The position numbers and the translations under genes are program-made. Of a stretch of DNA of 64,000 nucleotides, positions 377 to 50,863 are shown piece after piece. Within the stretch, counting starts at the first letter, position 1. Every line of letters starts with the position of its first letter. Where the stretch lies: contig JAGVGJ010000039.1 in NCBI GenBank assembly GCA_020057115.1, positions 52,806 through 116,805 on the forward strand, read 5' to 3'. Origin of the DNA: Candidatus Omnitrophota bacterium. GTDB lineage: Bacteria; Omnitrophota; Gorgyraeia; 2-01-FULL-45-10. The notes under the pieces were generated by a model. That model was not told the origin of the DNA, did no database searches, and was given only the letters and a program-made list of their open reading frames with translations.

Positions 377-452
377 TTATTTTGAGAAGCTGAGGGGTTT
401 GTGGGCGAAAAATACCCCCACCGATACTGCTTATTTGATATAATATTATGTT

Positions 453-1547: not shown

Positions 1548-1563
1548 TTTGCGAGGATTTCTT

Positions 1564-4353: not shown

Positions 4354-4357
4354 AACG

Positions 4358-5077: not shown

Positions 5078-5089
5078 CAAGGAGGGGCC

Positions 5090-5497
5090 ATGGTATCAAA
5101 AAGGATAGTGTTAACATTTCCGCACAAGCTGCTCGACCAGCCGATAGCATATAAGCTGGTGAAGGACCACAACCTGATGTTCAACATCCTTCAGGCGAAG
5201 ATAACCCCAAAGGAAGAGGGCATCATGGTCCTTGAGCTTTCCGGAAAGAAGGAAGATTATGCGCAGGGAATAAAGTACCTTACGGAACTCGGCATAAAGA
5301 TAAAGCCTTTAAGCAAGGATGTCTCAAGAAATGACGTAAAGTGCACGCATTGCGGGGCATGCATCACTATATGCCCGACAGGCGCTTTATACATGGACAG
5401 GGACACGATGAAGGTCATATTTGACGATGAAAAATGCATAGCCTGCGAGCTTTGCGTAAAGGCCTGTCCCCCGAGGGCAATGGTGGTAAAGTTCTAA
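5090..5497 (+). CDS. NIL-domain protein fused to a 2x[4Fe-4S] ferredoxin
   Basis: An N-terminal ~75-aa NIL-like domain followed by CTHCGACITICP and CIACELCVKACP cluster motifs. A good SD (aggagg) lies 8 nt upstream. Confidence 0.75.
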   Translation: MVSKRIVLTFPHKLLDQPIAYKLVKDHNLMFNILQAKITPKEEGIMVLELSGKKEDYAQGIKYLTELGIKIKPLSKDVSRNDVKCTHCGACITICPTGALYMDRDTMKVIFDDEKCIACELCVKACPPRAMVVKF

Positions 5498-5498
5498 C

Positions 5499-5527
5499 TT
5501 GACTTGGCGTATTTCAGGGCATAAAAT
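5499..5527 (+). promoter_or_regulatory. Sigma70-like promoter for the asrA-like / hydrogenase-1 operon
   Basis: ttgact (5499-5504), a 17-nt spacer, then taaaat (5522-5527). Confidence 0.4.
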
Positions 5528-5553
5528 ATATCTCTTTCACCGGCCAGGAGAGC

Positions 5554-6603
5554 ATGGAAAAAACATTTTACACGATAACAAAAAAAGACCTTTTTGACCT
5601 CTTCTCTAGGTTGTCAAAAGAGTACAGGATATTCGTCCCTTACAAGAAGGGCGAAGGCCTGTACTTCGGCGAATTCAACGCCGAGAAGGAAGACGAGATA
5701 GAGCTGGGCGCGATAAGACAGGCTCAGCCGTTCAAGTCTTTTATATCCGTTTCCCGCGAGAATGTCCTGGAGCCCGCAGAGAAGCGTTCCGGCCCTGTCA
5801 TAGTGGCCGGGGTGAAAAGCTGCGACCTCCAGAGCATGGTCCTGCAGGACCATGTATTCCTCGAAGGGGATTTTAAGGATCCTTTCTACGCAAAAAAGAG
5901 AGAAGATACGATCATAATATCCCATGACTGCACCACTGCCAAAGAGACGTGTTTCTGCATGGCGATGGCGGGCATGCCATTCCCCCAAAAAGATTTTGAC
6001 ATGAACCTCTCCCCGGTCGACGGGCACATACTGGTTGAGATCGGAAGCGAAAAGGGCAGGGCGATGGTGGGCGGTTATAAGACCTTCTTTAAGAGCGCCG
6101 ACTCCCGCGATATGAAAGCCAGGGATGAGCTGCGCGCTAAAGTCTCCGAAGAGGTCTCAGGTTTTATAAGTAAGCGTGGCACCCCGAAGACGACCGAACT
6201 GTGGGGGGTGGTAAAAAAGAATTACGACAACATCCCGTTCTGGCAGGATTTTTCTTCGACGTGCGTCGAATGCGGCGCATGCAATCTCGGATGCCCGACC
6301 TGCCACTGCTTTCTTCTTTATGACTCAAAAGGAAAGGACATCCCCAGGAGGATGAAGGCCTGGGATTCGTGTCTTTATAACACTTTTGCAAGGGTGGCCG
6401 GTGACCATAACCCGAGAAAACACCTTTATGAAAGGCTGCGCAACAGAATAGACAAAAAGCTCGACTACTTTCCGCATGTCATGAATTATTTCGCCTGCAC
6501 GGGGTGCGGGCGCTGTATAGAGGCGTGTCCCGGCGATATCGATATCAGAGAGATAATGAAAGGGCTTATGAAGGGCGCCTGGAACAAGCCGCCGAATGAT
6601 TAA
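5554..6603 (+). CDS. AsrA / sulfhydrogenase-beta (HydB)-like Fe-S subunit
   Basis: 349 aa with Cys motifs CFCMAMAG, CVECGACNLGCPTCHC and CTGCGRCIEACP, matching the anaerobic sulfite reductase subunit A / sulfhydrogenase beta architecture. Confidence 0.7.
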   Translation: MEKTFYTITKKDLFDLFSRLSKEYRIFVPYKKGEGLYFGEFNAEKEDEIELGAIRQAQPFKSFISVSRENVLEPAEKRSGPVIVAGVKSCDLQSMVLQDHVFLEGDFKDPFYAKKREDTIIISHDCTTAKETCFCMAMAGMPFPQKDFDMNLSPVDGHILVEIGSEKGRAMVGGYKTFFKSADSRDMKARDELRAKVSEEVSGFISKRGTPKTTELWGVVKKNYDNIPFWQDFSSTCVECGACNLGCPTCHCFLLYDSKGKDIPRRMKAWDSCLYNTFARVAGDHNPRKHLYERLRNRIDKKLDYFPHVMNYFACTGCGRCIEACPGDIDIREIMKGLMKGAWNKPPND

Positions 6604-7423
6604 TATGAAAAATCCGTATAGCTATATTGAGGCCGAGATACTGGACGTCATCGAAGAGTCCCCGACCATCAAGACCTTCAGGCTTAAGCCTAAGGCAGAC
6701 ATAGGTTTCAGGGCGGGCCAGTTCATGGATGTCACCATCCCCGGGGTTGGAGAGGCGCCGTTCACGCCTTCCTCGAACCATGACGTCAAGGAGTATCTGG
6801 ATTTCACCATCATGAAGGCAGGCCGCGTCACGAATCTTCTTCACGGGATGAAAAAGGGAGAGGTCGTGGGCCTGAGGGGGCCTTACGGCAAGGGATATCC
6901 TCTGGACATATTTAAAGGCAAGGATATATTTATCGTAGGAGGCGGCGTAGGGCTTGCGCCATTGAGGGCTCTGTTATACGCACTTTTCAACGAGGTCGAT
7001 GATTACAACAAGATAATACTTAAATACGGTTCAAGGTCCCCGAAGGACATAATATATAAAAGCGAGATAGATACCTGGAGAGACAGGGGCAAGAATGTGA
7101 GCCTTGAGGTCTCGTGTGATACCGGAGACGATACATGGAAAGGCAACGTCGGTCTTGTGACCACGATATTGAAAGACCTTGATATAAATATGGCTAATGC
7201 CGTATCGATAGTATGCGGCCCGCCGATAATGATGAAGTTCGTCACGTTCAAGATCCTGGACCTCGGGTTCAAAGACACGCAAGTCTATCTCTCGATGGAG
7301 AAGAACATGTCGTGCGGCATCGGCAAGTGCGGCCACTGCAGGATAGGGCCGTATTACGCATGTAAGGACGGGCCGGTATTCACTTACGACAAGATCAAGG
7401 ATCTGCCGAATATATGGGATTAA
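6596..7423 (+). CDS. AsrB / sulfhydrogenase-gamma (HydG)-like FAD/NAD(P)H-binding [2Fe-2S] oxidoreductase (PyrK family)
   Basis: 275 aa with a ferredoxin-NADP reductase-like fold (RAGQFMDV, GGGVGLAPL) and C-terminal CGIGKCGHCRIG...C [2Fe-2S] motif. Confidence 0.8.
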   Translation: MINMKNPYSYIEAEILDVIEESPTIKTFRLKPKADIGFRAGQFMDVTIPGVGEAPFTPSSNHDVKEYLDFTIMKAGRVTNLLHGMKKGEVVGLRGPYGKGYPLDIFKGKDIFIVGGGVGLAPLRALLYALFNEVDDYNKIILKYGSRSPKDIIYKSEIDTWRDRGKNVSLEVSCDTGDDTWKGNVGLVTTILKDLDINMANAVSIVCGPPIMMKFVTFKILDLGFKDTQVYLSMEKNMSCGIGKCGHCRIGPYYACKDGPVFTYDKIKDLPNIWD

Positions 7424-7427
7424 TAGA

Positions 7428-7458
7428 GGGACAAGGGGCCAGGGTCAAGGGTCCCAGG
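7428..7458 (+). repeat. G-tract repeat (4 G3-4 tracts) filling the asrB-like / hycB-like intergenic spacer and carrying the SD AGGTGA
   Basis: Sequence gggacaaggggccagggtcaagggtcccaggtg. Confidence 0.7.
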
Positions 7459-7464
7459 TGAAAT

Positions 7465-7968
7465 ATGAAAAGGCTATTCATAGATCTGGACATATGCGAT
7501 CAATGCGACGAATGTGTCTCGTCATGCTCTTATGTCCAGCATCCGAAGAATGAAGGCATCACATCCTTAAGGGAGCTGGCGCATTTCGTCGTAGTCTGCC
7601 GCAGGTGCGATGATGCCCCGTGTGTGGCCTCATGCCCGTGGGAAGCGCTCGAGATGCAGGACTATAATGCGCTCAAGAGATACATGATGAGGTGCACCTC
7701 ATGCAAGTCATGTTCGAGGGCATGCCCGTTCGGGGTCATATATCCGGAGACGATACCTTTCATCATAGCAAGGTGCGATTTCTGTCTCGGAAGGCTCAAA
7801 GAGGGCGAGACGCCGGCCTGTCTCCAGGCATGCACGCATAATGGCGTCAAGTACGGCGAGTTCGAAGAAAATAAGGACGAACATATCTACCAGGTATCGG
7901 AATATCTGGTTGTGAAGACAAATTACAAATGGGAGAGGATCCTCCAGGCTCCTCCGAAGAAGAAATGA
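7465..7968 (+). CDS. HycB/NrfC-like multi-[4Fe-4S] electron-transfer subunit
   Basis: 167 aa with four Cys clusters: CDQCDECVSSC, CRRCDDAPCVASCP, CTSCKSCSRACP and CDFC...C. Confidence 0.7.
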   Translation: MKRLFIDLDICDQCDECVSSCSYVQHPKNEGITSLRELAHFVVVCRRCDDAPCVASCPWEALEMQDYNALKRYMMRCTSCKSCSRACPFGVIYPETIPFIIARCDFCLGRLKEGETPACLQACTHNGVKYGEFEENKDEHIYQVSEYLVVKTNYKWERILQAPPKKK

Positions 7969-8903
7969 ACATTTTTGGATACTTAGGGCTACTCTTGATA
8001 TTCCCGGGCTTTTTGTTCACGGCCTTCATGGGGCTCATGGTGGGCTGGGTGGACAGGAAGGTCACGGCCAGGATACAGTACAGGGTCGGCCCTCCGTGGT
8101 ACCAGAATTTCTTCGATATTGCGAAGCTATTCTTCATAAAGGAGACGCTGATACCGGCGGGCGTGTCTAGGGCGCTGTTCCTCGGGATGCCGGCCTTGGG
8201 CCTTGCAGGGGCTACTCTGGTCTCCACGATGGTGCTCGTTATAAACGCATCCCCGAAGACGGGTTTTATAGGGGACCTTATCGTAATAGCGTACCTTTTG
8301 CTCATACCGCCTATCGCGGTGATGCTCGGCGGGTTCGTCTCCGAGAACAGCCTCGCGTCGCTCGGCGCGTCGAGGGAGATGAAGCTCATGATGTCATATG
8401 AGCTTCCGTTCATCCTTGCCATGACCGTGCCGATAATAAAGTGCGGCTACTCGATAAAGCTGGGGGAGATGATATCGGCGCAATATGTCAATGGCCCGGT
8501 ATTTGCGAGCGCATCCGGGGTGATCGCTTTCTTCGTCATGATGCTGTGCATCCAGGCGAAGCTCGGATTTGTACCGTTCGATATGCCCGAGGCCGAGACC
8601 GAGATAATGGCAGGCCCGTATATCGAATATTCAGGCAAGGCCCTCGGGATATTCAAGCTGCAGAAGGCGATGCTCGGGTTCATCATCCCCGTATTCATGA
8701 TAACTTTGTTCTTCGGCGGGATAAAGGATGACTTCTCCGGTTTTATGAAGAACATAGCCGAGTTCGCAGGGATACTGGTAATAATGATAGTCATAAAGAA
8801 CACCAACCCCCGCGTCAGGATAGACCAGGCGATGGGATTCTTCTGGAAACCTGTCACCGCCGCGGCGGTAATAGCGGTGGCGTTGGCGTATTTCGGGAAA
8901 TAG
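7965..8903 (+). CDS. NuoH/HycD/MbhM-like membrane subunit of group-4 hydrogenase complex 1
   Basis: The ORF from 7929 overlaps the upstream gene, so the likely start is MNIFGYLGL at 7965. Polytopic, with NuoH-like conserved residues (RKVTARIQYRVGP). Confidence 0.85.
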   Translation: MNIFGYLGLLLIFPGFLFTAFMGLMVGWVDRKVTARIQYRVGPPWYQNFFDIAKLFFIKETLIPAGVSRALFLGMPALGLAGATLVSTMVLVINASPKTGFIGDLIVIAYLLLIPPIAVMLGGFVSENSLASLGASREMKLMMSYELPFILAMTVPIIKCGYSIKLGEMISAQYVNGPVFASASGVIAFFVMMLCIQAKLGFVPFDMPEAETEIMAGPYIEYSGKALGIFKLQKAMLGFIIPVFMITLFFGGIKDDFSGFMKNIAEFAGILVIMIVIKNTNPRVRIDQAMGFFWKPVTAAAVIAVALAYFGK

Positions 8904-8905
8904 AT

Positions 8906-9340
8906 ATGGGATTAAAAGAAAAGATACTCGCGCGCTCGATATATGTCTTCCATGTCTCAAGCGGCAGCTGCAATAATTGCGATATCGAGATACTGGATTG
9001 CCTGACGCCGAGGTTCGACCTGGAGAGATTCGGCGTGGTACTGGTGGGAAGCGTCAAGCATGCCGATGCCATGTTATGCACCGGATCGGTCAACCGTCTC
9101 ACCGTGCCGCGTATAAAAAAATTATACGAGCAGATGCCCAAGCCAGGTTTTGTGATAGCATGGGGCGCGTGCGGCTCATCGCGCGGGCTCTTCAAGGACA
9201 GCTACAATACCGGTGCGCCGCTCGACGAGATAATCCCGGTCGATGCCTATATCCCGGGATGCCCGCCTAAGCCGGAGGCCGTAATAGGCGCGCTCGTCAA
9301 GCTTAAAGAGAAGATATTGAACAAGAAAGCCGTAAAATGA
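8906..9340 (+). CDS. Group-4 [NiFe]-hydrogenase small subunit (NuoB/MbhJ/EchC-like)
   Basis: 144 aa with the proximal [4Fe-4S] ligand motifs CNNCDIE, GSVKHAD...C and GCPP. Confidence 0.9.
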   Translation: MGLKEKILARSIYVFHVSSGSCNNCDIEILDCLTPRFDLERFGVVLVGSVKHADAMLCTGSVNRLTVPRIKKLYEQMPKPGFVIAWGACGSSRGLFKDSYNTGAPLDEIIPVDAYIPGCPPKPEAVIGALVKLKEKILNKKAVK

Positions 9341-9825
9341 CGCTGGACGATATACTCGCAAGCCTTGATAAAAGGTTTAAAGATAGCATCCAGAAGATAG
9401 AGAAGACATCGCCGAAGAAGGCATTCGTGGATATGGACGCGGCGAAGATAACGCAATTCGTTATCCATATCTTCAAGGACCTGGGATTGAGGCCGAATAC
9501 CATAAGCGCTGTCGATACTTTTGGCGGCTTTGAGCTGCTTTACCATTTTTCATATGACCGTTCTGGCGTTACGCTGTCATTAAGAGCTTTATTAAAAGAC
9601 AGGACGGAGCCGACGATAGATACGATCACCGGCATTACCAGATCAGCCTGGTGGATAGAAAGAGAGATACATGAGCTCTTCGGTATAAATTTCAGGGATA
9701 ACAAGGACTTGAGGACTCTGCTATTGCCTGACGACTGGCCGAAGGGCGTATATCCTTTAAGAAAAGATTTTATACCTCCGAAGAGAGATTCGCGGGGCCA
9801 TACCCATAAACCGGGAGCAGCATGA
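9337..9825 (+). CDS. NuoC/MbhK/EchD-like subunit
   Basis: 162 aa, NuoC-like, with a conserved C-terminal segment (ERE.HELFGI, PDDWPKG.YPLRKD). Confidence 0.85.
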   Translation: MTLDDILASLDKRFKDSIQKIEKTSPKKAFVDMDAAKITQFVIHIFKDLGLRPNTISAVDTFGGFELLYHFSYDRSGVTLSLRALLKDRTEPTIDTITGITRSAWWIEREIHELFGINFRDNKDLRTLLLPDDWPKGVYPLRKDFIPPKRDSRGHTHKPGAA

Positions 9826-11009
9826 GCCATAAAGCTACTATACCAATAGGTCCATATCATCCTCTGCAGGAAGAGCCTGAGTTTTATAAGCTGGTGGTAG
9901 AAGGCGAGCGGGTGGTGGATGTTGACGTCAGAATAGGATATAACCACCGCGGCATCGAGAAGATATCCGAGGGAAAGAGCTTCGACCAGGCGATATTTGC
10001 CGTAGAGCGCATATGCGGCATATGTTCTGGCAGCCACCCGATAGCGTGCGTGCAGGCCATAGAAGAGATCGCAAAGGTCGAGATCCCCGAGAGGGCTTTA
10101 TTTATCCGCTCCATCATACAGGAACTCGAGAGGCTCCATTCACACATGTTATGGCTGGGCCTTGCCGGGCACTTCCTGGGATATAACACCATATTTATGT
10201 GGGGATGGAAATACAGGGAGCCGATATGCGATATCATGGAGACTGTCACAGGCAACAGGCAGAACTATGGCATCATGAAGGTGGGCGGCGTAAGGCGCGA
10301 CATAGAGAAGGAACATGTCCCGTATATATTATCAAGGCTCGACGAATTCACTAAACAGCTCGATATGCTGAAAGGCGCCATACTCGACGATCCGGTGCTT
10401 CACGCGCGGCTTAAAGGCGTCGGGATCCTGACAAAAGAGAAGGCCATCGATTATGCAGCCCTTGGCCCGACCGCCAGGGCCTCCGGCGTAGATATAGACG
10501 CAAGGCGCGACTATCCTTATGCGGCATACCCAAGGGTCAAGTGGAATGTCATTACCCAGAAAGAGGGCGACGTATTCGCAAAGACGGTGGTGAGGATACT
10601 TGAGATGTATGAATCGGTCAATATCATAAGGCAGTGCCTGGATAAAATGCCGCAAGGGCCGATCGACGCGAAGGTAAAGGATGTTCCGCCGGGTGAAGGA
10701 ATAGGCCAGATAGAGGCTCCGCGCGGCGAATGTTTCCATTATATAAAATCGGACGGCACGAATTCTCCCATGAGGCACAAAATAAGGGCCCCGACCTTCA
10801 TGAATTTTGCCACGTTCCGCGAAACTGTCATAGGCGAGACGGTCTCCGACGCTACGATAATACTGGCCGCGATCGATCCGTGCTATTGCTGCACCGAGAG
10901 GATGGTAGTAGTCAACTCCAAAGATAGAGAGCTGTATAAAGGACCGGACCTGATAAAGCTGTCGCAGGAAAAGACAAGGCTCATAAAAGAGAAGATGCAG
11001 AGGCTATAA
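9822..11009 (+). CDS. Group-4 [NiFe]-hydrogenase large subunit-like (NuoD/MbhL/EchE-like), possibly Mbx/MBS-type
   Basis: 395 aa with N-terminal L1 motif RICGICSGSH and C-terminal L2 motif DPCYCCTER (an extra Cys where Ech/HycE have Ser). A 32-aa C-terminal extension follows the Arg, the expected substrate of the HycI-like protease. Confidence 0.85.
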   Translation: MSHKATIPIGPYHPLQEEPEFYKLVVEGERVVDVDVRIGYNHRGIEKISEGKSFDQAIFAVERICGICSGSHPIACVQAIEEIAKVEIPERALFIRSIIQELERLHSHMLWLGLAGHFLGYNTIFMWGWKYREPICDIMETVTGNRQNYGIMKVGGVRRDIEKEHVPYILSRLDEFTKQLDMLKGAILDDPVLHARLKGVGILTKEKAIDYAALGPTARASGVDIDARRDYPYAAYPRVKWNVITQKEGDVFAKTVVRILEMYESVNIIRQCLDKMPQGPIDAKVKDVPPGEGIGQIEAPRGECFHYIKSDGTNSPMRHKIRAPTFMNFATFRETVIGETVSDATIILAAIDPCYCCTERMVVVNSKDRELYKGPDLIKLSQEKTRLIKEKMQRL

Positions 11010-11011
11010 GG

Positions 11012-12823: not shown

Positions 12824-13341
12824 TAGAGATACATCTTCTTCTGCTTTTTATGATCGCCGCGGCCGTGATAGCCGTAGAGGCGAAAGACCTTTTGTCGAGC
12901 GTCATAGCGGTCGGCGCTGTCGGGATAGGCCTCTCGCTGTCATTTCTGGTACTGAAAGCGCCTGACCTCGCAATAATGCAGCTTGTGGTCGAGATATTGA
13001 GCCTCATCATACTCATCAGGGGCACGATACGGAGGGACCTTCCGTTCTCTGCTTCAGGAAGATGGTATTTTAATACGATAACCACGGTATGTTTTGTGAT
13101 AGTCTTCATAGGCCTTGCGCTCCTGACATTTAGGAGCCTGCCGGATCTGGGCAATGCCACGATGAGGGTATCGAAAGCCTATATCGCGGAAGGGATGCTT
13201 AGGACAGGCGCCAAGAACATAGTCGCAGCCATAACCCTTAATTACAGGGCATACGACACCCTGGGCGAGGCGACTATGATATTCGCCGCCGTAATAGGCG
13301 TCCTTGTGATAGCAAGGAAGACAGGCAAAAAGGAAAAATAA
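12820..13341 (+). CDS. MnhB/MrpB-domain membrane subunit (MbhD/E-like)
   Basis: 173 aa hydrophobic protein within the Mrp module. Confidence 0.55.
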   Translation: MIEIHLLLLFMIAAAVIAVEAKDLLSSVIAVGAVGIGLSLSFLVLKAPDLAIMQLVVEILSLIILIRGTIRRDLPFSASGRWYFNTITTVCFVIVFIGLALLTFRSLPDLGNATMRVSKAYIAEGMLRTGAKNIVAAITLNYRAYDTLGEATMIFAAVIGVLVIARKTGKKEK

Positions 13342-13342
13342 T

Positions 13343-13804
13343 ATGGCCGATATAGCCAGAGAGCATGGGATGACGGTGATAGTGAAGACGGTGACGCGTC
13401 TTACGCTGGCATTCATCCTTCTCTACGGCATATACATAGCCCTGAACGGCCACATATCTCCGGGGGGCGGGTTCGTGGGCGGTGTCATAGTCGCGCTTTC
13501 ATTCGTCCATGTGATGCTCGCCTTCGGCAAAGAGGCCGCGCTGAAGAGGCTCCATTCCAAGGGCTTGAGGCTCGCCGTGAATATCGGCGCGCTCATGTTC
13601 CTCTACATAGTCATGATGCGTTTCGCCTGGAAATTCCCGGCCGGAAGGTTCATCATAGAGAAGATGAGGCCTCACGAGATATTCGCGAATGAGATAATAT
13701 TACCTCTTTGCGAATTAGCGATAGTCGGGGCGGGATTATTCACCGTATTTATCGCGCTGGTGCTGCTCTGTAAGTATGAAGAAAAAATAGAGAAGGAGAA
13801 GTAG
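13343..13804 (+). CDS. MnhB/MrpB-family subunit (MbhF-like)
   Basis: The HISPGGGFVGG signature of the MnhB family. Confidence 0.7.
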   Translation: MADIAREHGMTVIVKTVTRLTLAFILLYGIYIALNGHISPGGGFVGGVIVALSFVHVMLAFGKEAALKRLHSKGLRLAVNIGALMFLYIVMMRFAWKFPAGRFIIEKMRPHEIFANEIILPLCELAIVGAGLFTVFIALVLLCKYEEKIEKEK

Positions 13805-13808
13805 GCCT

Positions 13809-14147
13809 GTGACAGCGTATATATTATGCCTTGTATTATTCTCGATAGGCCTTTACTGCGCCCTAAGGAAGAGGAACGTGGTCAAGATAATAATCGGGAT
13901 CGGCATCATGGAATATGCGGCGAATTTCCTATTCGTCTTGATAGGATACCGCTCCGGCGGCCGCTCGCCGATATATGCCAATGACCAGGTTATAAAGAGC
14001 ATGGTAGATCCGCTTCCGCAGGCCGTGGTGGCAGTAGCGATCGTGCTCAACCTGTCCGTGACGCTACTACTGGTCGCGATAGCGATAAAGCTTTATGAAA
14101 AGTACGGGACATTTGACATAACCAAGATAAATGACTTGAAGGGGTAA
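13809..14147 (+). CDS. MrpC/NuoK-like subunit (MbhG-like)
   Basis: 112 aa with three TM helices, NuoK-like. Confidence 0.7.
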   Translation: MTAYILCLVLFSIGLYCALRKRNVVKIIIGIGIMEYAANFLFVLIGYRSGGRSPIYANDQVIKSMVDPLPQAVVAVAIVLNLSVTLLLVAIAIKLYEKYGTFDITKINDLKG

Positions 14148-14156
14148 TAAAACAAC

Positions 14157-15653
14157 ATGGCTTTCATCCCATTCTTCATAGCGATACCTTTAGGAGCGGC
14201 ATTCTTGATCTCGCTTGCGGGAAAGAGGTTCAGGGCGTCTTCCGGCCCAATCGCGTGCGCGGCATCGCTCTTCCTCCTTGCGGCATCCCTCGCAATTGTG
14301 AAGCCGGTCCTGGCCCACAAGACGCTTGTATACAGGGTGGGGAACTGGCTTCCGCCGTTCGGCATACCCATGATAGTAGACAGCCTGACGGCGCTCATGC
14401 TCGTACTTGCCGGTATCGTCGTATTTTTTGTCACCATTTATTCTATAGGATATATGAAGCCATATACGGACAAGTGGAAGTATTATACCCTCCTCATGCT
14501 TCTGGTGGGAGGGTCTAACGGCGTTCTTCTGGCCGGCGACATATTTAATATGTTCGTCTTTCTCGAGATAGCGTCCATATCCGTATACGCGCTTGTCGCC
14601 TATGGTACCGAAAAACATTCTCTGGAAGGGGCATTCAAATATGCAGTAATGAGCTCCATAGGCTCGGTCTTCATATTTCTGGGTATAGCCATCCTCTATA
14701 GCTACACATCCACGCTTAACATGGCAGACATGGCCGCTGTCCTTATGCAGAAGGGGCCGGGAATGATAGTGCCTTTTGTCACGACCCTCTTCCTGGTCGG
14801 CTTCGGCCTCAAGGCGGGCCTCATGCCTTTCCACGCGTGGCTTCCGGACGCGTATTCCGCGGCTCCGGCGACGGTTCCGGCATTATCATCCGGAGTCCTG
14901 ATCAAGGTATTGGGGTTATACGCGATATCAAGGATCGTCTTCAACGTGTTCGGCATAAATGCCGAGGTCTCCAATATCCTCGTGATATTAGGTTCTCTGT
15001 CCATGGTAGGCGGAAGCATCCTCGCTTTCGGGCAGACGAAGATGAAGCGGCTCCTTGGGTATTCGAGCATCAGCCAGGTCGGATATATAGCTATCGGCCT
15101 GGGCGTCGGGACGCCGCTCGCGCTCTTCGGGAGCATATTCTATCTTTTGAACCACAGCCTTTCAAAGGCCCTCTTATTCTTAAGCGCCGGAGCGATCGAA
15201 CATTCGACGGGCACCGATGAGCTTGGATCTATAAGGGGAACCTGCAGGAGATCTCCGCTGGCCGGATGGGCCAGCCTTGTGGGCGCGCTATCCATAAGCG
15301 GCATACCGCCTCTCGGAGGATTCTGGGCGAAGCTCATTATAATATTCGCGTGCATACAGGCCGGAAGGCCGATGCTCGCATTCCTCATGGTGCTGGCAAG
15401 CATATTTACGCTCATCTATTATTTTAAAGCGTTTACCGGCGTCCTGTTCGGCTCTGAGTCAGAAAAGTCCAGGCCGTTCGAAAAGGCACTGTCGCCCCAT
15501 ATGGCCCTTGCGCTATTCTGCCTTACCGCTCTTGTGGTTGCCGCGGGGCTTGTGCTCCTTCCGGGGAAATGGCAGGCGCTTATTAACGGCGCGGTGGGCG
15601 TTCTTTCAGGCGGAAGGGATTACGCGATCATACTATTTGGAGCCATGAGATGA
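14157..15653 (+). CDS. Second MrpD/NuoN-like antiporter subunit of complex 1 (H'-like paralogue)
   Basis: 498 aa with FHAWLPDAYSAAPA and the SISQVGYI motif. Confidence 0.85.
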   Translation: MAFIPFFIAIPLGAAFLISLAGKRFRASSGPIACAASLFLLAASLAIVKPVLAHKTLVYRVGNWLPPFGIPMIVDSLTALMLVLAGIVVFFVTIYSIGYMKPYTDKWKYYTLLMLLVGGSNGVLLAGDIFNMFVFLEIASISVYALVAYGTEKHSLEGAFKYAVMSSIGSVFIFLGIAILYSYTSTLNMADMAAVLMQKGPGMIVPFVTTLFLVGFGLKAGLMPFHAWLPDAYSAAPATVPALSSGVLIKVLGLYAISRIVFNVFGINAEVSNILVILGSLSMVGGSILAFGQTKMKRLLGYSSISQVGYIAIGLGVGTPLALFGSIFYLLNHSLSKALLFLSAGAIEHSTGTDELGSIRGTCRRSPLAGWASLVGALSISGIPPLGGFWAKLIIIFACIQAGRPMLAFLMVLASIFTLIYYFKAFTGVLFGSESEKSRPFEKALSPHMALALFCLTALVVAAGLVLLPGKWQALINGAVGVLSGGRDYAIILFGAMR

Positions 15654-16150
15654 TGAAGAAGGCATTCCTGTTCATGCTTTGGTATCTGGTCTGGTGCCTT
15701 CTCGCATGGCCGCCAAGCATGCAGCACATGATAATAGGTATATTCGTAGCCTCGTTCGTGTCATTGATGACGAACGACATGTTCTCCGGAAAGCCGCTGG
15801 ATACCAGGTTGAATCCCGCCAGATATATGTGGTTCCTTTATTATGTAGCAGTGTTCGCATGGGAATGTTTCAAAGCGAATATAGACGTGGCGTACAGAGT
15901 GTTGCACCCGGACCTTCCGATAAAGCCCGGGACGATAAGGGTGAAGACAAGCCTTAAATCCGACGCCGGCCTCACTTTCCTGGCAAATTCGGTTACGCTT
16001 ACCCCGGGGACCACGAGCGTCGATATCGACAGGGATAAAGGTCTTATATATATTCACATGCTTTATATCAGCGACAGTTATGACAAGGATTCCATGAAGC
16101 TCAAAGTCGTAGACAAGTTCGAGAAGATATTGAGGAGGATATTCGAATGA
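15650..16150 (+). CDS. MrpE-like subunit (MbhA-like)
   Basis: 166 aa. The size, position in the Mrp module and hydrophobic N-terminus fit MnhE. Confidence 0.55.
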   Translation: MMKKAFLFMLWYLVWCLLAWPPSMQHMIIGIFVASFVSLMTNDMFSGKPLDTRLNPARYMWFLYYVAVFAWECFKANIDVAYRVLHPDLPIKPGTIRVKTSLKSDAGLTFLANSVTLTPGTTSVDIDRDKGLIYIHMLYISDSYDKDSMKLKVVDKFEKILRRIFE

Positions 16151-16512
16151 TCCCCGGAAGGGTCCGCTGGTTCATAGGCCTCGTGGCGTCATTTGCGGTC
16201 CTGGCGCTGATATTATTCCTGCCGCTTCCGTCGATGTTAAAGTGGCAGTCGGGCTTCCTGGGCCGCGCGTTCCTGTGGCTTCTGGTATGCGCCATACTTT
16301 GTCTGGCAAGGGTGGTGAGGGGGCCGACCGCGCCGGACAGGTCGGTCGCCATAGACATGCTCGGGATATTGATAGTCGGTTTCTGCGCCATCTTAAGCCT
16401 TTCTACGGGAAGAGATTGGTACATAGATATAGGGATAGCGTGGGCGCTGCAGAGCTTTATCGGCGTTATGGCTCTTGCCAAATACCTGGAAGGAAGGGAC
16501 TTCGATGAATGA
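16147..16512 (+). CDS. MrpF-like subunit (MbhB-like)
   Basis: 121 aa with three TM helices, positioned between the MrpE-like and MrpG-like genes. Confidence 0.55.
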   Translation: MIPGRVRWFIGLVASFAVLALILFLPLPSMLKWQSGFLGRAFLWLLVCAILCLARVVRGPTAPDRSVAIDMLGILIVGFCAILSLSTGRDWYIDIGIAWALQSFIGVMALAKYLEGRDFDE

Positions 16513-16840
16513 GAAGATAGGGATGGTGGTCATAGTGCTAGGGCTTGCATTCGACTTCTTCGGGTGCGTAGGCCTCATAAGGTTCCCGGATGTATATAAC
16601 AGGCTGCAAGCTTCGGCTAAGTGCGTGACCCTCGGGACATGCGGCATTCTCCTGGGGCTGTTCCTGTTCAAAGGTTTCAGCGGTGCCGGTATAAAGGCGT
16701 TATTGTGCATGGTATTCATATTGTTGACCGCTCCCGTCTCAGCCCACGCCCTCGCGCGGGCGGCATACCGCTCAGGGGTGAAGCCCTGGGGCGGTACGGT
16801 TGTGGATCATTACGGCGAAGACCTTGAAAATATAAAGTAG
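16505..16840 (+). CDS. MrpG-like subunit (MbhC-like)
   Basis: The MnhG signature RFPDVYNRLQASAK. The likely start is MNEKIG at 16505 (the ORF is listed from 16475). Confidence 0.75.
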   Translation: MNEKIGMVVIVLGLAFDFFGCVGLIRFPDVYNRLQASAKCVTLGTCGILLGLFLFKGFSGAGIKALLCMVFILLTAPVSAHALARAAYRSGVKPWGGTVVDHYGEDLENIK

Positions 16841-16848
16841 AGGAGCCT

Positions 16849-17457
16849 ATGAATATAAATGATATCAGGACGAAGACCATGATAATGGCCGATAAGGCCT
16901 ATGAGATGCTCGGCCTTGTCGAAAAAGGTTTTATGGAGAACAAGTCTGAGCCGCTGTCCCAGGCCATGAGGGTCGAAGACGATATAAATGACCTGGAAAA
17001 GTCCCTCACGAGGAACATCCTTGACATATCGATGGCGTCTACCAGCGAGAAGGACAGAAGAGAGCTTGCCACGCTCCAGCAGACGGTGGAGATGCTGGAA
17101 AGGATGGGCGATGAAGCGGCAAGCCTCATCGAGCGCATAGAGATAAAGGTGGCGGAGAAACTGCTCTTCAGCGACTCCGGGGTCGTCCAGTATAACGAGA
17201 CTTACCACGCGATGAAGCGTTCGGTAGAGATGATGCGCGAATTCCTCGCGAAGAATGATAAAGTCTTAAGGGAGAAGGTGATCGAGAACGGCTTCCACGT
17301 AAAGGAACTGGTGGAGCGATACCGCAAAGAACATACAGACAGGCTCCTGAAAGGGCTCTGTACGCCCATGGGCGCGAACATGTATTTCGACATGCTAGAT
17401 TTTACCGGCAACCTGGCGAGGCATTCCTCGACGATCACCAAATTTTTCGATTGCTAA
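16849..17457 (+). CDS. PhoU-like / DUF47 family protein
   Basis: 202 aa helical protein with PhoU-like repeats (D.INDLE....M.ER.GDEA), embedded in the hydrogenase operon. Confidence 0.55.
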   Translation: MNINDIRTKTMIMADKAYEMLGLVEKGFMENKSEPLSQAMRVEDDINDLEKSLTRNILDISMASTSEKDRRELATLQQTVEMLERMGDEAASLIERIEIKVAEKLLFSDSGVVQYNETYHAMKRSVEMMREFLAKNDKVLREKVIENGFHVKELVERYRKEHTDRLLKGLCTPMGANMYFDMLDFTGNLARHSSTITKFFDC

Positions 17458-17458
17458 A

Positions 17459-18079
17459 ATGAGATATCCTAAATTAAGAGAACTGATCGAAGCCGTAAAG
17501 GCCGTCATGAAGGGGCCGTATACGACGAGCTATCCGCGCAAGCCGCACAAGCCGGCGAAGCGTTTTCGCGGGAAGCCCGAATATTCGAATATCGGCTGCA
17601 TTGCGTGCGGTGCCTGCGCGCTCGTCTGCCCTGCCAGGGCGATAGAGTCCCGCGACAACATAACGAAAGACAATGCTACCAGGAAGATGGTCCTCCACCT
17701 TGACGAGTGCCATTATTGCGGCCAGTGCAGCGCTCTGTGCACCACCAAAGACGATGATCCGCCGGGCGTGCAGCACACCACAGAGTTCGATCTTGCGGGA
17801 TTTGACAGGGAGGCCATGGTCTCTACCACAGACGAAAAAGAGCTGGCCCTTTGCGAGGTATGCGGGGATGTCATAACTGCCAAAGCGCATCTTGCCTGGA
17901 TAGTGAAGAGGCTGGGGCCGCTCGCATATTCCAATCCGACGCTCTTCTTGTCTTCCTTGAAAGAGATGGGCCTTGCCGATGACATATTCTCCGCCGCCAA
18001 AGATTATGTGCTCAGGTCCGACAGGATCAAGATCCTCTGTTCCGACTGCAGGAGGAAGGCTACGATCGAAAGGTACTAA
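17459..18079 (+). CDS. NuoI/MbhN-like 2x[4Fe-4S] ferredoxin subunit with a C-terminal Cys-containing extension
   Basis: CIACGACALVCP and CHYCGQCSALC motifs, plus CEVCG...CSDC in the extension. Confidence 0.75.
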   Translation: MRYPKLRELIEAVKAVMKGPYTTSYPRKPHKPAKRFRGKPEYSNIGCIACGACALVCPARAIESRDNITKDNATRKMVLHLDECHYCGQCSALCTTKDDDPPGVQHTTEFDLAGFDREAMVSTTDEKELALCEVCGDVITAKAHLAWIVKRLGPLAYSNPTLFLSSLKEMGLADDIFSAAKDYVLRSDRIKILCSDCRRKATIERY

Positions 18080-18080
18080 G

Positions 18081-18563
18081 ATGCCCCAAAATACGCCCCT
18101 TACAAGAGATATAAAAGACAAGATAAGAGGCAATGTCACCATCGTCGGCATAGGCAACATCATGCGGGGCGACGACGGCCTCGGGCCTAAATTGATAGAG
18201 CTGTTAAGGACCGAGAAGGTGAACGCGAAACTCTTCGATTGCGGCACGGCGCCTGAAAATTACGCCATCCCGATACTGGCCACTTCGGCGGATACCATAA
18301 TATTCATAGACGCGGCAGAGATGGGCCGCTCTCCCGGAGAGATAGCGGTGCTCGGGTTAGAGGACATATCCAATGTTAGTTTCTCGACCCACAGCCCTTC
18401 GCCGAGGCTTTTCGTTGACCTGCTGAAGACCGGCAAGGAAGATATCAACGTCTTCTTCATATCCATCCAGCCGAAATCGACATCGCTAGGCGCTCACTTA
18501 AGCGGCGAGGTGATGGCGAGCCTTGACATGGTAAAGAGCGCCCTCGTAGAGACCCTGGTCTAG
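18081..18563 (+). CDS. hycI: Hydrogenase maturation endopeptidase (HycI/HybD family)
   Basis: Starts MPQNTPL. Motif IVGIGN.MRGDDG.G with conserved His later in the sequence (STHS). The larger ORF from 17973 overlaps the ferredoxin gene. Confidence 0.8.
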   Translation: MPQNTPLTRDIKDKIRGNVTIVGIGNIMRGDDGLGPKLIELLRTEKVNAKLFDCGTAPENYAIPILATSADTIIFIDAAEMGRSPGEIAVLGLEDISNVSFSTHSPSPRLFVDLLKTGKEDINVFFISIQPKSTSLGAHLSGEVMASLDMVKSALVETLV

Positions 18564-18572
18564 AAGAGCTAT

Positions 18573-50847: not shown

Positions 50848-50863
50848 AGAGATATTTACCACG

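What the first reader, a model, noticed from the sequence alone, without database searches (positions are those of the whole stretch)
5499..18563. Group-4 hydrogenase-like complex 1 with an AsrAB (sulfhydrogenase beta/gamma)-like NAD(P)H module, two MrpD paralogues and an atypical DPCYCCTER active-site motif
The operon is laid out as AsrA-like, AsrB-like (FAD plus [2Fe-2S]), HycB-like, NuoH/B/C/D-like, an Mrp module with two MrpD-type subunits (11012 and 14157), a PhoU-like protein, a NuoI-like ferredoxin and a HycI-like protease. Duplicated H subunits are a hallmark of the Thermococcales Mbx/MBS sulfane-reducing complex. The large subunit L2 motif here carries an extra Cys (DPC-Y-C-C) where Ech/HycE have Ser. 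A soluble sulfhydrogenase-type beta/gamma pair welded to a membrane ion-pumping module would be an unusual NAD(P)H-linked (or sulfur-linked) energy-converting complex. The C-terminal extension and a dedicated protease argue that a NiFe site is still matured.
Basis: partly seen in the sequence, partly recalled or inferred. Interest (0 to 1): 0.75.

Follow-up and report, generated by a model that had tools for sequence, protein, structure and literature searches.

The report
Membrane hydrogenase with NAD(P)H-type input module
This is a real 18-gene operon from an uncultured Omnitrophota bacterium that joins a membrane-bound, ion-pumping nickel-iron hydrogenase to a flavoprotein pair that probably handles NAD(P)H; the gene arrangement is widespread and has been noted before, but nobody has tested what it does.

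Summary

- **Active site.** The large subunit keeps all four NiFe cysteines (RICGICSGSH and DPCYCCTER). It has a 35-residue C-terminal tail, its own HycI protease, and hyp genes upstream.
- **Closest relatives.** Among solved structures it is closest to P. furiosus MbhL (44% identity), then HycE. MbsL is far more distant, so the MBS/sulfane idea is not supported.
- **Input module.** The beta/gamma pair is closest to P. furiosus sulfhydrogenase I beta/gamma, and its Fe-S, FAD and NAD(P) motifs are intact.
- **One operon.** The order beta-gamma-HycB-NuoHBCD was found in every related locus long enough to show it, across several phyla. A conserved sigma-70-like promoter sits just upstream of beta.
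- **The extra Cys.** It is invariant in Omnitrophota, rare elsewhere, and replaced by Ser in sister clades with the same architecture. It sits at a small-residue position, so it is a clade marker and not evidence of new chemistry.
- **Prior literature.** Matheus Carnevali et al. 2019 described this cluster type in Saganbacteria. Méheust et al. 2020 named it "Mbh-Mrp-oxidoreductase type". Omnitrophota papers call their membrane hydrogenase HydDB group 4g and assume ferredoxin coupling.

Best reading: an Mrp-coupled NAD(P)H:H+ / H2:NAD(P)+ oxidoreductase. It is a new member of a noted but uncharacterised kind.

The parts
5499..5527 (+). Sigma-70-like promoter TTGACT-17 nt-TAAAAT, 26 bp upstream of the beta start codon
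   Evidence: Best-scoring promoter-like site in 4000-21000 (10/12). TTGAC and TAnAAT are conserved at the same spacing upstream of beta in five of six aligned loci, and only approximately in L006. One of the conserved loci, L003, has unrelated upstream genes.
5554..6603 (+). Beta subunit (HydB/ShyB/AsrA-like Fe-S protein, 349 aa, 15 Cys)
   Evidence: Pfam Fer4_22 1e-28. NCBIfam ShyB 1e-45, AsrA 2e-39 and HydB 6.5e-38, all below the equivalog cut-offs. Full-length match to P. furiosus sulfhydrogenase I beta 9nez_B, E 1.8e-30, with the cluster cysteines aligned.
6596..7423 (+). Gamma subunit (HydG/AsrB-like; FAD, NAD(P)-binding, [2Fe-2S]; 275 aa); overlaps beta by 8 bp
   Evidence: Pfam FAD_binding_6, NAD_binding_1 and DHODB_Fe-S_bind. 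Match to 9nez_C, E 7.8e-56. PFTPSS, GGGVGLAPLRA, CGPP and C-x4-C-x2-C...C are conserved in the Mrp-linked relatives.
7465..7968 (+). HycB/CooF-like four-cluster ferredoxin subunit (167 aa, 16 Cys in four cluster motifs)
   Evidence: Pfam Fer4_11. Solved-structure hits to E. coli HycB 7z0s_B, HDCR HycB3 and PsrB-type proteins. Cys motifs read from the sequence.
7929..8903 (+). NuoH/MbhM-like membrane subunit (likely start 7965)
   Evidence: Pfam NADHdh 5e-60. Start inferred.
8906..9340 (+). NuoB/MbhJ-like small subunit with four Cys for the proximal [4Fe-4S]
   Evidence: Pfam Oxidored_q6 3e-28. Sequence.
9337..9825 (+). NuoC/MbhK-like subunit
   Evidence: Pfam Complex1_30kDa 2.5e-24.
9822..11009 (+). 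[NiFe] large subunit (395 aa): L1 RICGICSGSH, L2 DPCYCCTER, 35-aa C-terminal extension
   Evidence: MbhL 6cfw_L E 3.8e-92 (44% identity); HycE E 1.7e-82 (37%); MbsL E 1.1e-50. DPCYCCTER in 120/120 close homologues.
11012..12823 (+). Antiporter-like subunit 1 (603 aa; MrpA N-terminal/NuoL/MbsH'-like)
   Evidence: Pfam Proton_antipo_M. NCBIfam PRK08668 full-length match, and NuoL over 64-600. Solved-structure hits to MbhH, MrpA 7qru_A and 6u8y_X.
12820..14147 (+). MbhD/E-like (12820-13341), MnhB-like (13343-13804) and MnhC/NuoK-like (13809-14147) small membrane subunits
   Evidence: Pfam MbhD+MbhE, MnhB and Oxidored_q2.
14157..15653 (+). Antiporter-like subunit 2 (498 aa; MrpD/MbhH-like)
   Evidence: Pfam Proton_antipo_M 7e-63. 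Solved-structure hits MbhH 3e-76 and MrpD 1e-70.
15650..16840 (+). MnhE (15650-16150), MnhF (16147-16512) and MnhG (16475 or 16505 to 16840)
   Evidence: Pfam MNHE, MrpF_PhaF and PhaG_MnhG_YufB.
16849..17457 (+). PhoU-domain protein inside the operon (role unknown; possibly assembly or regulation)
   Evidence: Pfam PhoU 5e-13. Present at the same place in L001 and L003 and absent in L036/L037.
17459..18079 (+). NuoI/HycF/MbhN-like 2x[4Fe-4S] subunit with a C-terminal CxxC...CxxC extension
   Evidence: Pfam Fer4_7. NCBIfam formate hydrogenlyase Fe-S subunit 3e-25. Sequence.
17973..18563 (+). HycI-type maturation endopeptidase (likely start 18081)
   Evidence: Pfam HycI 7e-12. Start inferred.

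Best explanation
This is an Mrp-linked, Mbh-type group 4 [NiFe]-hydrogenase whose electron-input module is a sulfhydrogenase-type beta/gamma pair wired in through a four-cluster HycB/CooF-like subunit.

Proposed electron path:
1. NAD(P)H binds gamma (FNR-type FAD domain).
2. Gamma [2Fe-2S].
3. Beta Fe-S clusters.
4. Four [4Fe-4S] clusters of the HycB-like subunit.
5. Two [4Fe-4S] clusters of the NuoI-like subunit.
6. Proximal [4Fe-4S] of the NuoB-like subunit.
7. The NiFe site, where protons and H2 interconvert.

The NuoH subunit plus the full Mrp module (MrpA-like, MrpD-like, MbhD/E, MnhB, C, E, F, G) would couple this to H+/Na+ movement. The complex would therefore be a reversible, ion-coupled NAD(P)H:H+ / H2:NAD(P)+ oxidoreductase. 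Its layout parallels formate hydrogenlyase, with beta/gamma in the place of FdhH.

NAD(P)H to H2 is uphill by about 18 kJ/mol under standard conditions (textbook potentials of -320 and -414 mV). The likely physiological modes are therefore one of two:
- ion-gradient-driven H2 release from NAD(P)H;
- H2 oxidation that makes NAD(P)H while conserving energy.

What is shown: gene content, intact cofactor and NiFe motifs, operon unity, and conservation across phyla. What is inferred: physical attachment of beta/gamma, the nucleotide as the substrate, ion coupling, and direction.
For: **Catalytic core**
- NiFe ligands, a cleavable tail, HycI and hyp genes are all present.
- The large subunit is closest to MbhL and HycE.

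**Input module**
- Beta and gamma match P. furiosus SHI beta and gamma over their full length, with cluster cysteines, the FAD motif and the glycine-rich NAD(P) motif intact.
- A HycB-like four-cluster subunit is present. In solved FHL (7z0s) this type of subunit bridges the dehydrogenase to HycF (for the match; the bridging role is established knowledge).

**Operon unity**
- The beta-gamma overlap is 8 bp and the gamma-HycB gap is 41 bp with no terminator-like site.
- A promoter is conserved just upstream of beta in five of six aligned loci, including L003, whose upstream genes differ.
- All 32 loci recovered with beta as the query show the group-4 hydrogenase context as far as each contig extends. 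They come from species-representative genomes labelled Omnitrophota, Eisenbacteria, WOR-3, Phycisphaerae, Brocadiia, Anaerolineales and Spirochaetaceae, and beta identity ranges from 33 to 63%.
- Large-subunit relatives at 80-82% and 56% identity carry the same full Mrp-linked operon; a 46% relative (L040) carries beta, gamma and HycB upstream of a hydrogenase core without an Mrp module.

**Contrast within the window**
- A second Mbh-like hydrogenase has no beta/gamma/HycB. This fits one ferredoxin-coupled and one nucleotide-coupled enzyme in the same cell.
Against: - There is no biochemical or expression data.
- No gene fusion links beta/gamma to core subunits in any locus examined.
- Complex formation could not be modelled because no multimer prediction was available.
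- Beta and gamma score below every NCBIfam equivalog cut-off, so their partner specificity is not established by homology.
- Many sister loci insert a degenerate molybdopterin-family protein between gamma and HycB. This hints that the ancestral module may have served another substrate.
- In the Ech-type relative L040 the gamma glycine-rich motif is degenerate.
- Published Omnitrophota reconstructions assume ferredoxin coupling.
- A ferredoxin gene (NIL-Fd) lies just upstream.
Confidence: 0.55

Rival explanations
1. This is a ferredoxin-dependent Mbh, as currently annotated for group 4g. Beta/gamma forms a side branch, so the complex passes ferredoxin electrons to both H+ and NAD(P)+, or takes electrons from both donors. 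It would then act as a membrane-bound redox balancer and not as a strictly NAD(P)H-driven enzyme.
For: - The large subunit is Mbh-like.
- The NuoI-like subunit is the ferredoxin entry site in Mbh (established knowledge from 6CFW).
- A conserved NIL-domain ferredoxin gene lies next to the operon in many Omnitrophota loci.
- The literature assumes ferredoxin coupling.
Against: - The cell already has a second Mbh-like enzyme without any input module.
- In FHL-type complexes a HycB-like subunit caps the NuoI-like subunit; if that holds here it would occupy the ferredoxin site.
- The gamma flavin is a simple FNR-type domain with no sign of a bifurcating architecture.
Confidence: 0.2
2. This is a sulfur-linked complex. 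Beta/gamma acts as a sulfur or polysulfide reductase (as reported for sulfhydrogenase), or the whole enzyme works like MBS, with the extra active-site Cys involved in sulfane chemistry.
For: - Beta/gamma are homologous to sulfhydrogenase and AsrAB subunits.
- There are two antiporter-like subunits, as in MBS.
- The extra Cys is invariant in the clade.
Against: - MbsL is a distant match, and all four NiFe cysteines, the protease and the hyp genes are present, unlike MBS.
- No AsrC/siroheme subunit was found among the window ORFs scanned against Pfam.
- The extra Cys is replaced by Ser in sister lineages with the same architecture, and it sits at a generic small-residue position.
Confidence: 0.08
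3. This is a remnant or partner of a formate-hydrogenlyase-like system. Beta/gamma-HycB normally serves a molybdopterin dehydrogenase, as in the Saganbacteria and Planctomycetota variants. In Omnitrophota it would dock an unlinked catalytic subunit, so the true substrate would be formate or another small molecule.
For: - Sister loci carry a 470-580 aa molybdopterin-family protein between gamma and HycB.
- Carnevali et al. describe an FdhH-like gene in the Saganbacteria cluster.
- Beta weakly matches F420-type formate dehydrogenase beta subunits.
Against: - The inserted proteins are short and match molybdopterin domains only weakly or partially.
- Carnevali et al. could not classify their version as a formate dehydrogenase.
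- The Omnitrophota and Eisenbacteria loci lack it, yet keep beta/gamma highly conserved.
- No molybdopterin gene was found among the window ORFs scanned against Pfam.
Confidence: 0.1
4. Beta/gamma is an independent soluble NAD(P)H:acceptor oxidoreductase that is merely co-transcribed with the hydrogenase and is not physically attached to it.
For: - There are no fusion proteins.
- Attachment was not tested structurally.
Against: - The order beta-gamma-(X)-HycB-NuoH... is strictly conserved across phyla despite changing flanks.
- The gene overlaps suggest translational coupling.
- All 32 beta homologues recovered sit in the group 4 hydrogenase context as far as each contig extends.
Confidence: 0.05

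Closest known systems
'Mbh-Mrp-oxidoreductase type' group 4 [NiFe]-hydrogenase clusters of Saganbacteria RX5A and groundwater Elusimicrobia (Matheus Carnevali et al. 2019, PMC6349859; Méheust et al. 2020, bioRxiv 10.1101/765248)
   Same: - AsrA-like, AsrB-like and CooF/HycB-like genes lie directly upstream of hydrogenase core genes and Mrp antiporter-like genes.
- The authors state that the closest large-subunit relatives are in Zixibacteria and Omnitrophica.
- The function is unknown.
   Different: - The published Saganbacteria cluster includes an unclassifiable molybdopterin (FdhH-like) protein, which the window lacks.
- The window adds a PhoU-like gene.
- Neither paper proposes NAD(P)H coupling explicitly or mentions the DPCYCC motif.
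Pyrococcus furiosus membrane-bound hydrogenase Mbh (PDB 6CFW; HydDB group 4d)
   Same: - It is the best solved-structure match for the large subunit (44% identity) and for both antiporter-like subunits.
- It shares the NuoB/C/D/H/I-like core plus Mrp-derived subunits and the same NiFe motifs.
   Different: - Mbh has one antiporter-like subunit and no beta, gamma or HycB-like subunits, and it takes electrons from ferredoxin.
- Its L2 motif is DPCLSCTDR.
- The gene order differs: in the window the core precedes the Mrp genes and NuoI comes last.
E. coli formate hydrogenlyase FHL-1 (PDB 7Z0S; group 4a) and Thermococcus Fdh-Mfh-Mnh / CODH-Mch-Mnh (group 4b)
   Same: - The logic is a soluble dehydrogenase module wired through a HycB/CooF-type multi-cluster ferredoxin to HycF/NuoI, then HycG/NuoB, then the NiFe site.
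- HycE is the second-best structural match, and it has a very similar cleavage site (CTDR|MTVV against CTER|MVVV).
   Different: - The dehydrogenase here is an FAD/NAD(P)-type beta/gamma pair and not a formate dehydrogenase or CODH.
- NuoC and NuoD are separate proteins here.
Pyrococcus furiosus soluble sulfhydrogenase I (PDB 9NEZ; group 3b) beta and gamma subunits
   Same: - Beta and gamma align over their full length with conserved cluster cysteines, FAD and NAD(P) motifs.
- In SHI this pair links NADP(H) to the hydrogenase dimer (established knowledge).
   Different: - The partner is a membrane-bound group 4 enzyme and not the soluble alpha/delta dimer.
- Scores are far below the NCBIfam equivalog cut-offs (156 against 690 bits for ShyB; 191 against 600 for ShyC).
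Pyrococcus furiosus MBS/Mbx (PDB 6U8Y)
   Same: Two antiporter-like subunits. The 603-aa subunit matches the 618-aa antiporter-like chain 6u8y_X, which I take to be MbsH'.
   Different: MbsL is a distant match (E 1e-50). By my recollection, not tested here, MBS lacks the full NiFe cysteine set and needs no HycI; the window enzyme keeps all of these.

Membership tests
[quoted passage not shown] | Large subunit with L1 RxCGxCxxxH and L2 DPCxxCxx(H/R) NiFe-binding motifs | tested here: met
   RICGICSGSH and DPCYCCTER. Pfam NiFeSe_Hases plus Complex1_49kDa.
[quoted passage not shown] | NuoB-, NuoC-, NuoH- and NuoI-like core subunits encoded with the large subunit | tested here: met
[quoted passage not shown] | Mrp antiporter-derived subunits in the same operon | tested here: met
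   MrpA-like, MbhD/E, MnhB, MnhC, MrpD, MnhE, MnhF and MnhG.
[quoted passage not shown] | C-terminal extension with a dedicated endopeptidase, and Hyp maturation genes | tested here: met
   35-aa tail after CTER. HycI. hypC/D/E and a partial hypF upstream.
[quoted passage not shown] | HydDB subgroup assignment (4d against 4g) by the HydDB classifier or a reference phylogeny | not testable with these tools
Published HydDB runs call the Omnitrophota membrane hydrogenases group 4g. The window holds two such enzymes, so which one those papers scored is an inference.
[quoted passage not shown] | Ferredoxin as the electron donor | not testable with these tools
   This needs enzymology. The presence of beta/gamma/HycB argues for a different or additional donor.
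'Mbh-Mrp-oxidoreductase type' cluster (Carnevali 2019 / Méheust 2020) | AsrA-like, AsrB-like and CooF-like genes adjacent to the Mbh core and Mrp genes | tested here: met
.
'Mbh-Mrp-oxidoreductase type' cluster (Carnevali 2019 / Méheust 2020) | Molybdopterin (FdhH-like) oxidoreductase in the module | tested here: not met
   No such ORF lies between gamma and HycB (41-bp gap). It is present in the sister loci L012, L025-L028, L030 and L034.
MBS/Mbx sulfane-reducing complex | Large-subunit homologue lacking the complete NiFe cysteine set; no hydrogenase maturation protease | tested here: not met
   All four Cys and HycI are present. MbsL matches at only E 1e-50, against 4e-92 for MbhL.
MBS/Mbx sulfane-reducing complex | Two antiporter-like subunits (H and H') | tested here: met
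   This feature is shared with Mrp antiporters in general, so it does not discriminate.
Soluble sulfhydrogenase (group 3b) beta/gamma | Beta and gamma reach the NCBIfam equivalog scores and are encoded with group 3b delta/alpha subunits | tested here: not met
   Scores are far below the cut-offs. The neighbours are group 4 subunits in every locus.
Anaerobic sulfite reductase AsrABC | AsrA and AsrB at equivalog score, together with the siroheme subunit AsrC | tested here: not met
   AsrA scores 136 bits against a cut-off of 323, and AsrB 236 against 289. No AsrC-like gene was found among the ORFs scanned.
Formate hydrogenlyase (group 4a/4b) | Formate dehydrogenase catalytic subunit in the complex | tested here: not met
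   No molybdopterin-family ORF was found among the window ORFs scanned against Pfam.
Formate hydrogenlyase (group 4a/4b) | HycB-type four-cluster connector plus a HycF-type subunit | tested here: met

The most novel reading that the evidence does not exclude
The clade defined by beta-gamma-HycB plus a group 4 core could be a biochemically new enzyme class: a membrane-bound, ion-translocating NAD(P)H-dependent [NiFe]-hydrogenase. In effect it would be a 'complex I that reduces protons instead of quinone', built with an FNR-type flavoprotein in place of NuoEF. Such an enzyme would let fermenters and syntrophs spend ion gradient to dispose of NAD(P)H as H2, or gain energy while making NAD(P)H from H2, without flavin-based bifurcation. 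The clade occurs in Omnitrophota, Eisenbacteria, WOR-3, Planctomycetota, Chloroflexota and others.
Probability: 0.45. Interest if true: 0.72.

Novelty: new member of a known kind. Interest (0 to 1): 0.5.

Why it matters
HydDB lists group 4g hydrogenases as of undetermined role. Metabolic reconstructions of Omnitrophota, Cloacimonadota and Auribacterota model them as ferredoxin-driven proton pumps.

If the conserved beta/gamma-HycB module makes this enzyme NAD(P)H-linked, the redox and energy budgets in those reconstructions are wrong. A direct, ion-coupled route between the pyridine-nucleotide pool and H2 would then exist in many uncultured anaerobes.

That bears on a long-standing question: how NADH is re-oxidised to H2 against thermodynamics, outside electron-bifurcating [FeFe] hydrogenases. 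It would also be an independent solution to attaching an NAD(P)H dehydrogenase module to a complex-I-like scaffold.

The operon is compact and comes with its maturation genes, so the hypothesis can be tested directly by heterologous expression.

Tried and rejected
- **MBS/Mbx-like sulfur chemistry.** Rejected because the NiFe site is intact and MbsL is only a weak match.
- **DPCYCC as a mechanistically special motif.** Downgraded. Among 95 group-4 cluster representatives with a readable L2 motif, the position is S in 59, A in 22, G in 6, C in 6 and T in 2. It is Ser in sister loci with the same architecture.
- **Rex operator upstream of beta.** Only two 3-mismatch hits in the window, both inside genes, at chance level.
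- **Gene fusions linking beta/gamma/HycB to core subunits.** None found; only NuoC-NuoD fusions.
- **Exact look-up of the window's large subunit in the contig index.** Nothing returned, so relatives were used instead.
- **Contigs for P0121 and P0124.** Too short to show context.
- **Literature search for a cryo-EM paper on sulfhydrogenase I (9NEZ).** Nothing in the searchable library.
- **Structure prediction.** Not run. Only monomers are possible, sequence matches to solved chains were already full-length, and the decisive question (docking of beta/gamma on HycB) needs a multimer model.
- **HydDB subgroup.** Could not be computed here.

Full report
**1. Observation**

The region 5499-18563 holds 18 co-directional ORFs on the + strand. 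Pfam and NCBIfam identify them as follows:
- an AsrA/HydB-like Fe-S protein ("beta", 5554-6603);
- an AsrB/HydG-like FAD/NAD(P)/[2Fe-2S] protein ("gamma", 6596-7423);
- a HycB/CooF-like ferredoxin (7465-7968);
- NuoH-, NuoB-, NuoC- and NuoD-like subunits (7929-11009);
- a full set of Mrp-derived subunits: a 603-aa MrpA/NuoL-like subunit, MbhD/E, MnhB, MnhC, a 498-aa MrpD-like subunit, and MnhE, F, G (11012-16840);
- a PhoU-domain protein (16849-17457);
- a NuoI/HycF-like subunit (17459-18079);
- a HycI endopeptidase (to 18563).

The large subunit carries RICGICSGSH and DPCYCCTER, followed by 35 residues.

Small corrections, from in-frame start codons and gene lengths in relatives:
- NuoH probably starts at 7965.
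- MnhG probably starts at 16505.
- HycI probably starts at 18081.

With those starts, every junction from beta to HycI is between -8 and +41 bp.

**2. Organism and surroundings**

The large subunit is 100% identical to a public protein. It is 79-93% identical to the next 119 listed homologues, and every source name that gives an organism says Candidatus Omnitrophota/Omnitrophica.

Upstream lie a partial hypF, hypC, hypD, hypE, an unassigned ORF and a NIL-domain 2x[4Fe-4S] ferredoxin. Downstream, 9 bp after hycI, lie pabB- and pabC-like genes.

A second Mbh-like cluster sits at 50917-60732, just after an H+-pyrophosphatase gene:
- It has three antiporter-like subunits, NuoB/C/D/H/I-like subunits and its own HycI.
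- Its large subunit is genuine (RICGICSHAH, DPCFSCTDR plus a 47-residue tail) and 48% identical to that of complex 1.
- It has no beta, gamma or HycB-like genes.

**3. Is beta/gamma part of the hydrogenase operon?**

Four lines of evidence say yes.

(a) Beta and gamma overlap by 8 bp. Gamma and HycB are 41 bp apart, with no terminator-like site between them.

(b) The best promoter-like site in the region (TTGACT-17-TAAAAT, 5499-5527) lies in the 56-bp gap before beta. An alignment of the same gap from six Omnitrophota-type loci keeps TTGAC invariant. TAnAAT at the same spacing is kept in five of the six and only approximately in L006. One of the conserved loci, L003, has unrelated polysaccharide-export genes upstream.

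(c) Large-subunit relatives at 80-82% identity (L001-L003) and 56% (L036/L037) carry beta, gamma and HycB in front of the same core and Mrp genes; a 46% relative (L040) carries them in front of a core without an Mrp module.

(d) Searching the other way, with beta as the query against one genome per species, gave 32 loci. Their titles name Omnitrophota, Eisenbacteria, WOR-3, Phycisphaerae, Brocadiia, Anaerolineales, Spirochaetaceae and unclassified bacteria. In every one, beta-gamma is followed by HycB-NuoH-NuoB-NuoC-NuoD and antiporter genes as far as the contig extends.

The beta subfamily therefore appears dedicated to group 4 hydrogenases. No fusion proteins link the module to the core, so physical attachment remains an inference.

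**4. Variants of the architecture**

Three variants were seen.
- **Minimal form.** Beta-gamma-HycB plus core plus Mrp. This is the form in the window, and also in Eisenbacteria-type loci and L036/L037.
- **Form with an inserted protein.** A 470-580 aa protein sits between gamma and HycB. It matches molybdopterin-oxidoreductase domains only weakly or partially. It occurs in L012, L025-L028, L030 and L034; L029, L031 and L035 show the same ~2.5 kb spacing but their ORFs were not examined.
- **Ech-type form.** Beta-gamma-HycB plus NuoH/B/C/D/I with no Mrp module. This is L040, whose gamma has a degenerate glycine-rich motif.

The PhoU-like gene is present in the Omnitrophota loci L001 and L003 but absent from L036/L037.

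**5. What the parts look like**

- **Large subunit.** Among solved structures it is closest to P. furiosus MbhL (6CFW; E 3.8e-92, 44% identity). Next is E. coli HycE (7Z0S; E 1.7e-82, 37%). Its cleavage site (CTER|MVVV) closely resembles that of HycE (CTDR|MTVV). MbsL (6U8Y) is far weaker at E 1.1e-50.
- **Beta.** It aligns end to end with sulfhydrogenase I beta (9NEZ_B, E 1.8e-30), with the cysteine groups conserved. It has 15 Cys in all.
- **Gamma.** It aligns with sulfhydrogenase I gamma (9NEZ_C, E 7.8e-56). It keeps the PFTPSS flavin motif, GGGVGLAPLRA, CGPP and the C-x4-C-x2-C...C [2Fe-2S] motif.
- **Equivalog status.** Both score well below the NCBIfam equivalog cut-offs for ShyB/C, HydB/G and AsrA/B. 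They form a separate subfamily of that superfamily.
- **HycB-like protein.** It has 16 Cys in four cluster motifs and matches HycB of FHL, HycB3 of HDCR and PsrB-type subunits.
- **Antiporter-like subunits.** The 603-aa subunit matches MbhH, MrpA and the 618-aa chain 6u8y_X of MBS. The 498-aa subunit matches MbhH and MrpD.

**6. The DPCYCC motif**

- It is invariant in the 120 closest homologues.
- It is present in the Eisenbacteria-, WOR-3- and L036-type loci.
- The Phycisphaerae, Anaerolineales, Brocadiia and Spirochaetaceae loci, which have the same beta-gamma-HycB architecture, have DPCYSCTER.
- An exhaustive HMMER search of 1.84 billion representatives listed its best 150 matches. Of these, 95 show an L2 motif. 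The residue before the second Cys is S in 59, A in 22, G in 6, C in 6 and T in 2. Four of the six Cys cases are DPCYCCTER and so apparently of this clade (one confirmed by its locus). The other two are DPCICCTDR and DPCFCCQDR.

The extra Cys is thus a real, rare, clade-typical substitution at a small-residue position. It is not required for the architecture, so it gives no evidence of altered chemistry.

The next representatives outside the clade are at most 48% identical. The enzyme therefore does not sit inside ordinary Mbh or Ech clusters.

**7. Mechanism**

The arrangement mirrors formate hydrogenlyase and the Thermococcus Fdh/CODH-Mfh/Mch-Mnh systems. In those, a soluble dehydrogenase is wired through a HycB/CooF-type protein to the NuoI-like subunit, then the NuoB-like subunit, then the NiFe site (established knowledge from 7Z0S). 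Here the dehydrogenase is the beta/gamma pair. In sulfhydrogenase and in AsrABC, that pair links NAD(P)H to an Fe-S chain (established knowledge).

I therefore propose an Mrp-coupled NAD(P)H:H+ / H2:NAD(P)+ oxidoreductase.

With textbook potentials (-320 mV for NAD(P)+/NAD(P)H, -414 mV for H+/H2), H2 formation from NAD(P)H costs about +18 kJ/mol under standard conditions. It becomes roughly neutral only near 10 Pa H2. The membrane arm would then do one of two things (inference):
- spend ion gradient to push H2 out;
- conserve energy when H2 reduces NAD(P)+.

The ion gradient could be supplied, for example, by the neighbouring H+-PPase or by the second, presumably ferredoxin-driven, hydrogenase.

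The gamma segment YGSRSPKD aligns with NTARYGKD of the NADPH-preferring sulfhydrogenase I (the NADPH preference is from memory). This is a weak hint towards NADPH.

Rival readings are scored separately in the report: ferredoxin-coupled with an NAD(P) side branch; sulfur reduction; a docking site for an unlinked molybdoenzyme; an unattached soluble enzyme.

**8. Comparison with the literature**

- HydDB lists group 4g as "ferredoxin-coupled (putative), undetermined role".
- Williams et al. 2021 and Seymour et al. 2023 report a "group 4g, Mrp-linked" membrane hydrogenase in Omnitrophota and assume ferredoxin coupling and redox balancing. In the passages retrieved, neither mentions beta/gamma.
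- Matheus Carnevali et al. 2019 describe an "enigmatic" group 4 hydrogenase in Saganbacteria RX5A. Its closest relatives are in Zixibacteria and Omnitrophica. Its region encodes Mrp-like subunits, an unclassifiable molybdopterin oxidoreductase, a CooF-like protein, and AsrA- and AsrB-like proteins that "might compose an oxidoreductase module".
- Méheust et al. 2020 call this the "Mbh-Mrp-oxidoreductase type", function unknown.
- Full-text searches found no paper with biochemical data, or with an explicit NAD(P)H-coupling proposal, for this cluster type.

**9. Verdict**

The feature is real and correctly described. It is a member of a previously noticed but uncharacterised family. Specifically, it is the minimal, molybdopterin-free form, which is nearly universal among the Omnitrophota homologues examined.

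The MBS/sulfur analogy and the significance of the extra cysteine are not supported. The NAD(P)H-linked, ion-coupled hydrogenase reading is the best-supported hypothesis (about 0.55). It would be of real interest if shown, but it rests on homology and synteny only.

Noticed in passing
window 48523-60732: A second, separate Mbh-like [NiFe]-hydrogenase cluster sits directly after an H+-pyrophosphatase gene (48523-50847). It has three antiporter-like subunits and NuoK/J-like, NuoB, NuoC, large subunit (57704-58927; RICGICSHAH / DPCFSCTDR plus a 47-aa tail), NuoH, NuoI and its own HycI (60211-60732). It has no beta/gamma/HycB, so it is probably the ferredoxin-coupled enzyme of this cell. Its large subunit is 48% identical to that of complex 1.
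   Followed up: partly
window 1-2237: The hypF ORF (453-1547) encodes only the C-terminal Kae1-like half (HypF_C domains). Bases 1-450 are stop-rich in all frames, so the acylphosphatase/Zn-finger/YrdC half is missing here. hypC is at 1564-1776, followed by about 460 bp without an obvious gene before hypD (2237). This could be a split or truncated hypF, or an assembly artefact.
   Followed up: partly
window 5090-5497: A NIL-domain plus 2x[4Fe-4S] ferredoxin gene lies immediately upstream of the operon promoter. It is 73-79% identical in eight loci (L001, L002, L004, L007-L009, L011) and always lies within about 3 kb upstream of beta. It could be a redox partner or be related to maturation.
   Followed up: partly
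window 16849-17457: A PhoU-domain protein is embedded between mnhG and the NuoI-like gene. It is conserved at that position in L001 and L003 but absent from the otherwise identical operon in L036/L037. Its role in a hydrogenase operon is unexplained.
   Followed up: partly
window 18573-20890: pabB-like (aminodeoxychorismate/anthranilate synthase component I) and pabC-like (class IV aminotransferase) genes start 9 bp after hycI with no terminator. The same pair follows the operon in L001 and L003, so there may be read-through co-transcription of folate-branch genes with a hydrogenase.
   Followed up: no
L012, L025-L028, L030, L034 (e.g. L027:11800-13416): Sister lineages insert a short (470-580 aa) protein between gamma and HycB. 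It matches molybdopterin-oxidoreductase domains only weakly or partially and has an N-terminal CxxCxxxC motif. I read it as reminiscent of the cofactor-less C-terminal domain of NuoG, which would suggest an independently assembled 'N-module'. L029, L031 and L035 show the same ~2.5 kb spacing between gamma and HycB, but their ORFs were not examined.
   Followed up: partly
L040:4808-11011: This is an Ech-type version of the same idea: beta-gamma-HycB followed by NuoH/B/C/D/I only, with no Mrp module. It lies on a contig with PorV / Por-secretion-tail genes. Its gamma has a degenerate glycine-rich NAD(P) motif and its L2 motif is DPCTGCAER.
   Followed up: no
window 41735-48328 and 25718-29002: There is a very large ORF (2197 aa) and a 1094-aa TPR-repeat protein. 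The 2197-aa ORF was not scanned against any family library.
   Followed up: no
window 61026-62654 (- strand): A large serine recombinase (Resolvase, Recombinase and Zn-ribbon domains) lies just downstream of the second hydrogenase cluster. It may mark the border of a mobile element.
   Followed up: no
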